Assembly (NCBI GenBank): GCA_000004985.1
Contig: GG739463.1
Reading direction: 5' to 3' (one strand)
Length of the DNA: 1,267 nucleotides
From: Naegleria gruberi
Lineage: Eukaryota
Part shown: piece by piece, positions 1 to 1,267 of the stretch
How positions within the stretch are numbered: the stretch's first letter is position 1
How the letters are laid out: the number at the start of each line of letters is the position of its first letter
Position numbers and translations under genes: made by a program
The notes under the pieces: model-generated
What the model saw: only the letters and a program-made list of their open reading frames with translations
The model's database searches: none
Told to the model about the DNA's origin: nothing

Positions 1-415
1 TTGTTTGTTGTTTTTCAGTTTGATTACTTCTTACCAAACTATAGAAATACTTTTCAATCACATCTTCATATTGTGTAATTGCTTGAGCCGGAATGGCATT
101 ATATACTTTTTCATATAATTCTGCAATTCTCTTATAATCGTGTACCTTTTCCAAAGCCATACTCAATGTTCGGAGAATAAAATCGTGAAATTCCATCTTC
201 TTTTGTGCTAAAACATCATCAACAAGTTGAATAGATTCCTTTCTCTTTCCTAAATTCATCAAAATTAAAGCCTTGAATGAGAGAAAAACACTAGACTCTG
301 GATACTTTTGCAACATGGCATCACATTCTTTAAGAGCATTCACATCCTTTCTTTCATCAACAAGGACGTAAACCTTTTGAATTTCTTGAACGGAAGGCTT
401 AGCTGATGTAGACAT
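1..415 (-). CDS. 5'-terminal coding exon of a TPR-type N-alpha-acetyltransferase auxiliary subunit, most similar to the NatB auxiliary subunit (NAA25/MDM20 family). The start codon is complete at 415-413. The ORF stays open to the window edge, and a candidate splice donor at 34-33 (minus-strand GT) may end the exon at 35.
   Basis: Seen in sequence: the minus-strand ORF from ATG (complement of 413-415) has no stop over 138 codons and leaves the window open. It translates to MSTSAKPSVQEIQKVYVLVDERKDVNALKECDAMLQKYPESSVFLSFKALILMNLGKRKESIQLVDDVLAQKKMEFHDFILRTLSMALEKVHDYKRIAELYEKVYNAIPAQAITQYEDVIEKYFYSLVRSNQTEKQQT. From recalled family sequences (not searched): the pattern VYxLVD...KxAxxxxDxLLxK...KALxLxxxGKxxEsxxLxxxV...LxxLxxxxxxxHxxxxxxxLYExxVxxxP resembles the N-terminus of NAA25/MDM20-type Nat auxiliary subunits, and more weakly NAA15. 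The A-run immediately 5' of the ATG fits a nematode-style initiation context. Codon usage (AAG, GAA, ATT, GTT, CTT) is consistent with a real gene. Confidence 0.75.
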   Translation of the reverse strand, partial: MSTSAKPSVQEIQKVYVLVDERKDVNALKECDAMLQKYPESSVFLSFKALILMNLGKRKESIQLVDDVLAQKKMEFHDFILRTLSMALEKVHDYKRIAELYEKVYNAIPAQAITQYEDVIEKYFYSLVRSNQTEKQQT

Positions 416-460
416 TTTTTTTAAATAGCACAAAATAATAATGATGAAAGCAAGTATTGC
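416..460 (-). promoter_or_regulatory. Immediate 5' flank, a putative 5'UTR or core promoter, of the minus-strand Nat-auxiliary-subunit gene. It includes an A8 tract abutting the ATG.
   Basis: Position relative to the start codon only. No AG trans-splice acceptor and no convincing TATA box lie within ~100 nt upstream on the minus strand. Confidence 0.25.
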
Positions 461-508
461 CAATGAATAAATTATCAATGAGAAAGTAAAAATAAACAAT
501 CCTATTTT
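461..508 (+). repeat. Left terminal inverted repeat arm: caatgaataaattatcaatgagaaagtaaaaataaacaatcctattttt.
   Basis: Direct reverse-complement match to 1203-1249. The core tgagaaagtaaaaataaacaatcct is perfect. Confidence 0.85.
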
Positions 509-517
509 TAATTTCCG

Positions 518-533
518 GGTTAACATGTTAACC
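518..533. repeat. Perfect 16-bp palindrome ggttaacatgttaacc, made of two GTTAAC half-sites separated by AT.
   Basis: The sequence equals its own reverse complement. It lies 10 bp inside the left TIR and directly 5' of a TATAAAAG motif. It is a candidate dimeric DNA-binding-protein site (transposase or homeodomain/HNF1-like), but its function is unknown. Confidence 0.8.
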
Positions 534-541
534 TATAAAAG
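534..541 (+). promoter_or_regulatory. Canonical TATA-box-like motif TATAAAAG on the + strand, immediately after the palindrome.
   Basis: The sequence cc-TATAAAAG-gtcg matches the eukaryotic TATA consensus exactly. The background is AT-rich, so chance occurrence is plausible, and there is no supporting transcript evidence. Confidence 0.25.
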
Positions 542-1158
542 GTCGTCGAAAACAGATGATAAATAACTAGTGAGCAGTGGCTCTAAGGTAGCATATTCTG
601 TTTTTACCTTTTGCCATGATATCGAACCCTGCATATGCAAATATTTTTAAAAAAAAACTACAAGTCGAAAATTGCTGGTCGTGTGGTGATTTGTCAACAA
701 TTTTCACTAGCACACCATCAAATGTAACACCAAGAACTCAACAATAAATTGAAGAACCAAGATTTTATTATTTTAAACAATTTTAGCACATGTCAAATAA
801 CGAACGGGAAGTTGGCTGATCAACATTAAAACTTGTATGTACTCAAGGATGATGAATCATTGCACTTCTAACAAATTGGTGGTTGACATCACAACCAATT
901 AAAGAGCATCAGTTTGAACAAAATTCATGCGTCAATAGAAGAGCAACATTACATGACGATCAGCCTGAAAGAATAGCTTCTAGAATACTAGATAAGAATC
1001 TGTGGTTGCGAGTAAGAGTTAAAGAATACAAAATAACAAAACATACAATTAACTAGTAGAAATCATTATTAATCGAGGTATTTTTTTTTGAATGTTTAAT
1101 AGTTTACAACGATATGAAGAAAATTTCCGTTACCAAACTTGTCACACAAGAGCGTTTC

Positions 1159-1191
1159 AATAGAAAATGAGGCACAGCCTCATTTTCTATT
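1159..1191. other. Perfect hairpin with a 15-bp stem (aatagaaaatgaggc / gcctcattttctatt) and a 3-nt loop (aca), followed directly by AATAAA at 1193-1198.
   Basis: Exact reverse-complement arms are seen in sequence. The hairpin lies ~12 bp inside the right TIR. Confidence 0.8.
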
Positions 1192-1221
1192 AAATAAACA
1201 AGAAAACAGGATTGTTTATTT
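1192..1221. repeat. Nested 10-bp inverted repeat aaataaacaa ... ttgtttattt with a 10-nt spacer, overlapping the inner edge of the right TIR.
   Basis: 1192-1201 is the reverse complement of 1212-1221. The same 10-mer also occurs in the left arm at 490-499. Confidence 0.6.
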
Positions 1222-1249
1222 TTACTTTCTCAATAATAATTGTTCATTG
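1203..1249 (-). repeat. Right terminal inverted repeat arm, the reverse complement of the left arm.
   Basis: The reverse complement of 1203-1249 is caatgaacaattattattgagaaagtaaaaataaacaatcctgtttt, which aligns to 461-508 with 4 mismatches and 1 gap. Confidence 0.85.
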
Positions 1250-1267
1250 TTGAACATGGTAGGACTG

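What the first reader, a model, noticed from the sequence alone, without database searches (positions are those of the whole stretch)
461..1249. ~789-bp terminal-inverted-repeat element lying ~45 bp upstream of the start codon of a Nat auxiliary-subunit gene
Two ~48-bp arms (461-508 and 1203-1249) are reverse complements with a perfect 25-bp core. They enclose ~700 bp of non-coding, non-palindromic sequence. This is the architecture of a MITE or other non-autonomous DNA transposon. Because it begins only 45 bp from the ATG at 415, it occupies the region where the gene's core promoter should lie, and none is otherwise recognisable, so the element may be supplying or disrupting that promoter. 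No TSD is visible. That argues for an old insertion, a family with very short or no TSD, or an inverted repeat with a non-transposon origin.
Basis: seen in the sequence. Interest (0 to 1): 0.6.

Follow-up and report, generated by a model that had tools for sequence, protein, structure and literature searches.

The report
Inverted-repeat-bounded insert upstream of Naegleria NatB gene
A real 48-bp inverted repeat encloses about 700 bp of non-coding DNA just upstream of the NatB auxiliary-subunit gene of the amoeba Naegleria gruberi (not a nematode); it looks like a lineage-specific, transposon-like insertion, but it has no target-site duplication and no second copy could be looked for, so it is an ordinary, unproven MITE candidate.

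Summary
Arms 461-508 and 1203-1249 are reverse complements: 43 matches, 4 mismatches and 1 gap, with an exact 25-bp core (479-503 / 1208-1232). None of 500 dinucleotide shuffles exceeded 15 bp. The interior is non-coding.

The source is Naegleria gruberi, not a nematode. The window is an entire 1267-bp mini-scaffold. Its ORF is identical over all 138 residues to the N-terminus of NAEGRDRAFT_64165, a 926-aa protein on a 695-kb scaffold, so the window is a redundant or alternative copy of that locus. Orthologues carry Pfam NatB_MDM20.

In three relatives the region upstream of the same start codon is 29, 174 and 159 bp, with no inverted repeat. Here it is at least 852 bp. That fits a lineage-specific insertion.

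No target-site duplication exists. Copy number in the N. gruberi genome could not be tested. Exact-match scans for the arm core found nothing related in the metagenome, viral or prokaryote collections.

Best reading (about 0.45): a decayed, non-autonomous terminal-inverted-repeat transposon-like insertion. A non-mobile inverted duplication is the main rival. MITE membership is not established. Interest is low.

The parts
2..415 (-). 5' part (138 codons, runs off the window) of the N. gruberi NatB auxiliary-subunit gene (NAA25/Mdm20 type). The start codon is at 413-415.
   Evidence: Translation. It is 100% identical to P0001 (XP_002668009.1, partial) and to residues 1-138 of P0274 (NAEGRDRAFT_64165, 926 aa). 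It is 75-78% identical to the N-termini of 930-955-aa orthologues that carry PF09797 NatB_MDM20 (E=1.4e-62).
416..460 (-). 45-bp proximal upstream segment between the start codon and the left arm. It includes the A-run immediately 5' of the ATG (T-run 416-423 on the + strand).
   Evidence: Sequence. The A-run before the ATG is the only upstream feature shared with L001, L002 and L004.
461..508 (.). Left arm of the inverted repeat (exact core 479-503).
509..1202 (.). 694-bp AT-rich non-coding interior.
   Evidence: No ORF longer than 66 codons. No Pfam hit, no tRNA or Rfam hit, and no similarity to the orthologous loci.
518..533 (.). Perfect 16-bp palindrome GGTTAACATGTTAACC, 9 nt inside the left arm.
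   Evidence: An 8-bp stem is within the range seen in shuffles, so on its own it is weakly significant.
1159..1191 (.). Perfect 15-bp-stem, 3-nt-loop hairpin (17/18 if extended to 1156-1194), 11 nt inside the right arm.
   Evidence: z = -8.4; 0 of 300 shuffles exceed a 12-bp stem.
1203..1249 (.). Right arm of the inverted repeat (exact core 1208-1232).
1250..1267 (.). 18-bp right flank up to the end of the scaffold. It contains an ATG at 1256-1258 (+) in a poor, non-A-rich context and is too short to interpret.
   Evidence: All three minus-strand frames entering from the right edge stop within 14 codons (read from the sequence).

Best explanation
The segment 461-1249 is most likely the remnant of a non-autonomous cut-and-paste (class II, terminal-inverted-repeat) DNA element, or a similar inverted-repeat-bounded insertion.

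It entered the short intergenic region upstream of the NatB auxiliary-subunit gene in the Naegleria gruberi lineage. It landed about 45 bp upstream of the start codon and enlarged that region from roughly 30-170 bp to more than 850 bp.

**Shown:**
- the inverted repeat;
- the non-coding interior;
- the lineage-specific expansion;
- the absence of the repeat at orthologous sites.

**Inferred:**
- A transposase encoded elsewhere once recognised the two arms and inserted the element.
- The target-site duplication has since eroded, or the family makes none.
- The gene still uses the retained 45-bp proximal segment with its A-run, possibly together with sequence inside the insert, as promoter and 5' UTR.
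- The window survives as a separate mini-scaffold possibly because the insert is heterozygous.
For: 1. **The repeat is real.** It is 48 bp with a 25-bp exact core, and 0 of 500 shuffles exceeded 15 bp. Nothing comparable occurs in about 40 kb of related genomes. The arms pair in both the MFE and the centroid fold of the 801-nt strand (z = -5.0).
2. **The element is small and non-coding.** It is 789 bp, AT-rich, and has no coding capacity or RNA-family match.
3. **The upstream region is short in relatives.**
   - L001 (Naegleria sp.): 29 bp after the stop codon of a glycerol-kinase gene.
   - L002 (N. lovaniensis/fowleri cluster): 174 bp.
   - Willaertia magna: 159 bp.
   - None of these has an inverted repeat of 18 nt or more spanning the site, and none shows similarity to window 416-1267. 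The window has at least 852 bp with no gene.
4. **The window is a redundant copy.** It is a 1267-bp scaffold whose ORF is identical to that of a gene on a 695-kb scaffold. This is what an unmerged haplotype carrying a structural difference would look like.
5. **Unclassified repeats exist in this genome.** Published surveys report that N. gruberi has repeats of which only a small fraction can be classified (PMC12344493; 5.1% repeats, PMC6125883).
Against: - No target-site duplication flanks the repeat. The only exception is a 7-mer (TCAATGA / TCAATAA) at the alternative boundaries 482/1229, and that is explained by the near-palindromy of the outer arm.
- The best-conserved part of the arms is the inner 25 bp, not the outer tips.
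- No second copy was seen anywhere. The 25-mer core gave 0 hits in the metagenome, viral and GTDB collections. The 9 hits to a 20-mer are chance matches. These collections do not contain the N. gruberi genome, so this is absence of a test, not a negative result.
- Classified TE content in Naegleria is very low (0.28% in bioRxiv 10.64898/2026.06.24.734286), which lowers the prior.
- The orthologous intergenic regions are too diverged to show an exact empty site.
Confidence: 0.45

Rival explanations
1. A non-mobile local inverted duplication. A 48-bp stretch of this AT-rich intergenic region was copied in inverted orientation about 700 bp away by replication template switching or break repair. 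The intergenic region grew by other means. No transposase was ever involved.
For: - No TSD.
- No other copy was detected.
- The arms are more conserved internally than at the tips.
- The region holds other palindromic features (hairpin 1159-1191, palindrome 518-533, small hairpins 487-510 and 1192-1221), suggesting a locally palindrome-prone sequence.
- Classified TE content is low in Naegleria.
Against: - Template-switch events usually create close-spaced hairpins, not arms about 700 bp apart.
- This model does not by itself explain why the intergenic region is 5-30 times longer than in three relatives.
Confidence: 0.25
2. A functional structural or regulatory inverted repeat. The two arms could be the same promoter or 5'-leader module placed in front of two divergently transcribed units (the ATG at 415 on the minus strand and the ATG at 1256 on the plus strand), or a cruciform/insulator-type element.
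For: - Each arm lies just upstream of an ATG in the same relative orientation: 46-93 nt before the ATG at 415, and 7-53 nt before the ATG at 1256.
- The + frame is open from 1118 to the window end.
Against: - The repeat is absent from the orthologous promoter in three relatives.
- In two of them the upstream neighbour is a tandem, not divergent, glycerol-kinase gene.
- The ATG at 1256 lacks the A-rich context seen before the NatB start in all four species, and only 12 nt follow it.
Confidence: 0.12
3. An artefact of a tiny, low-coverage Sanger scaffold. A chimeric clone or mis-join placed unrelated sequence next to the NatB 5' end, so the position 'upstream of the gene' is not real, although the repeat itself may exist elsewhere in the genome.
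For: - The window is an entire 1267-bp scaffold that duplicates the 5' end of a gene already present on a 695-kb scaffold.
- The right arm lies 18 bp from the scaffold end.
Against: - The arms differ by 4 mismatches and 1 indel and are 694 bp apart.
- The sequence after 1249 is not the reverse complement of 443-460, so this is not a strand-switch or snap-back artefact.
- Nothing marks a junction near 460.
Confidence: 0.08

Closest known systems
MITEs / non-autonomous class II (TIR) DNA transposons
   Same: - Under 800 bp, AT-rich and without coding capacity.
- Bounded by terminal inverted repeats of tens of bp.
- Sits in a gene's 5' flank.
- Absent from the orthologous site in relatives.
- The single strand folds into a long stem through its ends.
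   Different: - No target-site duplication.
- Multi-copy status is unknown.
- The tips are less conserved than the inner part of the arms.
- No superfamily-diagnostic terminal motif was recognised (from my own knowledge of hAT, Tc1/mariner, PIF/Harbinger, piggyBac, CACTA and Mutator termini; not tested against a library).
Helitron (3' subterminal hairpin)
   Same: A strong 15-bp hairpin lies close to one end of the segment.
   Different: - No CTRR 3' terminus within 10-20 nt of the hairpin on either strand (read from the sequence).
- Helitrons lack TIRs.
Solo LTR
   Same: A several-hundred-bp non-coding unit with inverted termini.
   Different: - The 48-bp arms are far longer than typical LTR terminal repeats.
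- No TG...CA ends with a 4-6-bp TSD.
Spaced inverted repeats made by template switching or inverted duplication
   Same: Imperfect arms, no TSD, single observed copy.
   Different: A spacing of about 700 bp and a lineage-specific length gain of about 700-800 bp are more typical of an insertion.

Membership tests
MITE / non-autonomous TIR DNA transposon | Terminal inverted repeats at both ends | tested here: met
   461-508 versus 1203-1249: 43 matches, 4 mismatches and 1 gap, with a 25-bp exact core. 0 of 500 shuffles exceeded 15 bp.
MITE / non-autonomous TIR DNA transposon | Target-site duplication directly flanking the TIRs | tested here: not met
   A systematic scan of boundaries 436-490 / 1220-1265 for 2-10-bp direct repeats found only chance-level 2-4-bp matches. 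It also found a 6/7 match (TCAATGA/TCAATAA) at the internal boundaries 482/1229, which lies inside the extended repeat.
MITE / non-autonomous TIR DNA transposon | Multiple dispersed copies in the host genome | not testable with these tools
   N. gruberi contigs are not retrievable. The arm core gave 0 hits in the metagenome, viral and GTDB collections, none of which holds this genome. The 20-mer hits are chance.
MITE / non-autonomous TIR DNA transposon | Small size and no transposase ORF | tested here: met
   789 bp. The longest stop-free stretch is 66 codons and there is no Pfam hit at E<=1.
MITE / non-autonomous TIR DNA transposon | Empty site in a related genome or allele | tested here: inconclusive
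   Orthologous upstream regions are 29, 174 and 159 bp and lack the repeat. The flanks are too diverged to align. The allele on the 695-kb scaffold could not be fetched.
Helitron | 3' hairpin followed within about 10-12 nt by CTRR; 5' TC; no TIRs | tested here: not met
   The hairpin at 1159-1191 is present, but no CTRR follows it on either strand (sequence), and the segment has TIRs.
Solo LTR | TG...CA termini with a 4-6-bp TSD | tested here: not met
   No such ends or TSD near 455-465 / 1245-1260.
NatB auxiliary subunit (NAA25/Mdm20) - the adjacent gene | Full-length protein carries the NatB_MDM20 domain (PF09797) after N-terminal TPR-like repeats | tested here: met
   - The window ORF equals residues 1-138 of the 926-aa N. 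gruberi protein P0274.
- P0274 is 68-69% identical over its full length to P0002 and P0151.
- P0002 hits PF09797 at E=1.4e-62.
- The window fragment alone gives only sub-threshold TPR hits.

The most novel reading that the evidence does not exclude
The 789-bp segment is a presence/absence (heterozygous) insertion of an uncharacterised TIR element family in N. gruberi NEG-M. That would explain why this haplotype was left as its own 1267-bp scaffold beside the 695-kb scaffold carrying the same gene. It would be direct evidence of recent DNA-transposon activity, without a conventional TSD, in a genome regarded as very TE-poor, and it would sit in the promoter of an essential N-terminal acetyltransferase subunit gene.
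Probability: 0.15. Interest if true: 0.35.

Novelty: new member of a known kind. Interest (0 to 1): 0.2.

Why it matters
If confirmed as a mobile element, it would add a small TIR family to the poorly classified repeat fraction of Naegleria gruberi. It would also give an example of an insertion that enlarges a normally very compact promoter region 5- to 30-fold. If the main scaffold lacks it, it would mark structural heterozygosity in the NEG-M strain. None of this changes current understanding of transposons or of NatB, so the value is mainly for annotation.

Tried and rejected
- **Chance.** Rejected by the shuffles and by real related DNA.
- **RNA gene.** No tRNA, and no Rfam hit at E<=1.
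- **Hidden protein-coding or degraded transposase.** No Pfam hit for any of the eight stop-free stretches within 509-1267 (seven of them inside the repeat-bounded segment 461-1249).
- **Bacterial-type promoters and terminators.** At background level, and irrelevant for a eukaryote.
- **Other copies of the arm.**
  - The 25-mer gave 0 hits in metagenome, viral and GTDB contigs.
  - The 20-mer gave 9 hits whose flanks match at random level.
  - The hairpin pattern gave 0 hits in viral and GTDB contigs.
- **Fetching N. gruberi DNA.** Neither P0001 nor P0274 is on record in the contig index, so the main-scaffold allele and the genome-wide copy number could not be examined.
- **N. gruberi glycerol-kinase neighbour.** Searched for in order to walk into the locus from the other side. 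No N. gruberi hit appeared among the best 120, and the clusters hold no named Naegleria member.
- **Alignment to the region downstream of glycerol kinase in L003.** Best local score 28, against a shuffle mean of 24.7 and maximum of 38, so not significant.
- **Helitron and solo-LTR readings.** Rejected on terminal motifs.
- **Strand-switch assembly artefact.** Rejected because the arms are imperfect and the repeat stops 18 bp before the scaffold end.
- **Upstream in-frame ATG (524-526) extending the NatB ORF by 37 hydrophobic residues.** Rejected. Orthologues start at the methionine equivalent to 413-415, and the extra 25 aa in P0002 overlap the glycerol-kinase gene.
- **Literature.** No paper was found that describes MITEs or TIR families of Naegleria. 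The 2010 genome paper is not held.

Full report
**Source and context**

The window is not from a nematode. Its minus-strand ORF (2-415, start codon at 413-415) is 100% identical to the NCBI entry 'predicted protein, partial [Naegleria gruberi]' (P0001 = EFC35265.1 / XP_002668009.1). The only contig carrying that entry is 1267 bp long, so the window is a whole mini-scaffold of the N. gruberi assembly.

The same 90% cluster contains P0274 (NAEGRDRAFT_64165, XP_002680435.1, 926 aa), which lies on a 695,587-bp scaffold. Its first 138 residues are identical to the window's ORF. The window is therefore a redundant copy of the 5' end of a locus that is also present in the main assembly. It could be an alternative haplotype, a duplicate or a chimera. 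Neither N. gruberi protein is on record in the contig index, so I could not retrieve the main scaffold.

**The gene**

An exhaustive HMMER search found a 955-aa protein (P0002) that is 75% identical to the window's ORF. A word-indexed search with P0002 as the query then found:
- P0151, a 930-aa protein that is 78% identical to the window's ORF over its first 138 residues. It clusters with the N. lovaniensis and N. fowleri proteins.
- P0152, a 964-aa protein from Willaertia magna.

P0002 hits Pfam NatB_MDM20 (PF09797) at E=1.4e-62. P0274 is 68-69% identical to P0002 and P0151 over its full length.

The start codon at 413-415 corresponds to the start codon of the orthologues. The window fragment alone gives only sub-threshold TPR hits.

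**The observation**

- Arms 461-508 and 1203-1249 align as reverse complements with 43 matches, 4 mismatches and 1 gap. The ungapped call is 470-508 / 1203-1241 at 92%.
- The exact core is 25 bp, at 479-503 / 1208-1232.
- In 500 dinucleotide-preserving shuffles the longest exact spaced inverted repeat was 9-15 bp.
- In about 40 kb of related heterolobosean DNA nothing exceeds 16 bp.
- Similarity ends at 461 and 1249.
- Folded as a single strand, the arms pair in both the MFE and the centroid structures (z = -5.0).

The interior (509-1202) is 27-38% G+C. It has no stop-free stretch over 66 codons, no Pfam hit at E<=1, no tRNA, no Rfam match at E<=1 and no tandem repeats.

- A perfect 15-bp-stem, 3-nt-loop hairpin at 1159-1191, 11 nt inside the right arm (z = -8.4; 0 of 300 shuffles exceed a 12-bp stem).
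- A perfect 16-bp palindrome, GGTTAACATGTTAACC, at 518-533, 9 nt inside the left arm.

**Target-site duplication**

I scanned all boundary pairs within 436-490 / 1220-1265 for 2-10-bp flanking direct repeats. Only chance-level 2-4-bp matches turned up, plus one 6/7 match (TCAATGA / TCAATAA) at boundaries 482/1229.

That 7-mer lies inside the outer part of the arms, which is near-palindromic. The outer 21-22 nt align far better as an inverted repeat (17 matches, including a perfect terminal CAATGAA) than chance allows. I therefore read the 7-mer as part of the inverted repeat, not as a TSD.

**Comparison with orthologous loci**

I recovered three loci that contain the start of the NatB gene.

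| Locus | Source | Upstream neighbour | Distance to NatB ATG |
|---|---|---|---|
| L001 | ENA metagenome, a Naegleria species | FGGY glycerol-kinase gene, same strand, ending ...SLDWHEE* | 29 bp |
| L002 | Logan SRR29240419, N. lovaniensis/fowleri cluster | the same kinase gene, ending ...SLDWHEE* | 174 bp |
| L004 | Willaertia magna | glyoxalase gene | 159 bp |

- None of the three has an inverted repeat of 18 nt or more spanning the site.
- Outside the coding region, nothing in any of them resembles window 416-1267.
- The only shared upstream feature is the A-run immediately before the ATG.
- The window has at least 852 bp upstream with no recognisable gene. The three minus-strand frames entering from the right edge stop within 14 codons, and none resembles the kinase C-terminus (read from the sequence).
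- The three Naegleria lineages are about equidistant (67-69% protein identity). Coding DNA is only about 77% identical. An exact empty site therefore cannot be aligned.
- A fourth contig (L003) has the kinase 3' end followed by 516 bp without a NatB start. It shows no significant similarity to the window.

**Copy number**

This is the key missing test. The arm core (25-mer) gave no exact hit in JGI metagenome contigs, IMG/VR or GTDB genomes. A 20-mer gave nine hits whose flanks match at random level. The hairpin gave none.

None of these collections contains the N. gruberi genome, so this says nothing about copy number in the host.

Literature context:
- N. gruberi has about 5.1% repeats (PMC6125883).
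- Only a small fraction of those repeats can be classified as known TEs (PMC12344493).
- One survey classifies only 0.28% of the genome as TE (bioRxiv 10.64898/2026.06.24.734286).
- I found no paper describing Naegleria MITEs.

**Interpretation**

The evidence best fits a lineage-specific, inverted-repeat-bounded insertion, most simply a decayed non-autonomous TIR transposon. It would have landed about 45 bp upstream of the NatB start codon in a region that is otherwise very compact in this group. I put this at about 0.45.

- Shown: the inverted repeat, the non-coding interior, the 5- to 30-fold longer upstream region, and the absence of the repeat in relatives.
- Inferred: transposase-mediated insertion, loss or absence of a TSD, and a possible link between the insert and the existence of the separate mini-scaffold.

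A defining MITE feature (the TSD) was tested and not met, and another (multi-copy status) could not be tested. I therefore do not file this as a MITE. It resembles one in architecture only.

Rivals:
- **Non-mobile inverted duplication in a palindrome-prone AT-rich spacer (0.25).** It is favoured by the lack of a TSD, the single observed copy and the better conservation of the inner arms.
- **Functional inverted repeat serving two divergent units (0.12).** Each arm lies just upstream of an ATG. However, the repeat is not conserved, the neighbouring gene in relatives is tandem rather than divergent, and the ATG at 1256 has a poor context.
- **Mis-joined mini-scaffold (0.08).** The imperfect, widely spaced arms, and the fact that the repeat stops 18 bp before the scaffold end, argue against a strand-switch artefact.
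- **Chance.** Excluded.

**The promoter claim**

One sister species fits the whole upstream region into 29 bp. The A-run before the ATG is intact in the retained 45 bp. The insert therefore need not have displaced the core promoter. Whether it contributes to or disturbs transcription cannot be told from sequence.

**Verdict**

This is an ordinary kind of feature: a candidate TE-derived insertion in a protist intergenic region. Identity, copy number and allele status would all be settled by one BLASTN against the N. gruberi assembly. Interest is low (0.2).

Noticed in passing
window 1-1267 (whole): The window is an entire 1267-bp N. gruberi scaffold. Its ORF is identical over 138 aa to the N-terminus of NAEGRDRAFT_64165 (926 aa) on a 695,587-bp scaffold. 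It is therefore a redundant or alternative-haplotype mini-scaffold.
   Followed up: partly
window 1159-1191 (extended 1156-1194): A perfect 15-bp-stem, 3-nt-loop hairpin (AATAGAAAATGAGGC aca GCCTCATTTTCTATT) lies 11 nt inside the right arm. It is highly non-random (z = -8.4; 0 of 300 shuffles exceed a 12-bp stem). It has no Rfam match, no Helitron-type CTRR end, and no exact copies in viral or GTDB contigs. Its function is unknown.
   Followed up: partly
window 518-533: A perfect 16-bp palindrome, GGTTAACATGTTAACC (two GTTAAC sites around CATG), lies 9 nt inside the left arm. With the hairpin near the right arm it gives the segment a roughly mirror-symmetric layout of arm followed by a subterminal palindrome. 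On its own it is only weakly significant.
   Followed up: no
window 487-510 and 1192-1221: Small local hairpins (8-bp and 10-bp stems) form between the inner edge of each arm and adjacent interior sequence. AAATAAACAA occurs at 490-499 and again, in direct orientation, at 1192-1201. These are within the range seen in shuffles.
   Followed up: no
window 416-532, minus strand: The NatB reading frame stays open upstream of the start codon as far as 532. An in-frame ATG at 524-526 would add 37 very hydrophobic residues. This extension is not conserved in orthologues, which start at the methionine equivalent to 413-415, so it is probably just AT-rich read-through.
   Followed up: yes
window 2-34, minus strand: The deposited partial gene model (P0001, 127 aa) stops 11 codons before the window edge. 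The ORF in fact continues, and it matches the full-length protein through residue 138.
   Followed up: yes
L001 1495-8723; L002 868-9983: The gene order glycerol kinase (FGGY), NatB auxiliary subunit, myosin-I, all on one strand, is shared by two Naegleria lineages. Willaertia magna has different neighbours (glyoxalase upstream, rhodanese downstream).
   Followed up: partly
L001 3385-3459: The called product P0002 starts 25 codons upstream of the conserved methionine and overlaps the 3' end of the glycerol-kinase gene (stop at 3428-3430). This is probably an over-extended gene call on a metagenome contig.
   Followed up: yes
L003 1926-2441: In a further Naegleria-like metagenome contig the glycerol-kinase stop is followed by at least 516 bp with no NatB start. 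The compact kinase-NatB spacing is therefore not universal in the genus, or synteny differs there.
   Followed up: partly
protein database: No N. gruberi orthologue of the Naegleria glycerol kinase appeared among the best 120 hits or in the clusters. The gene may be missing, unannotated or elsewhere in N. gruberi.
   Followed up: no
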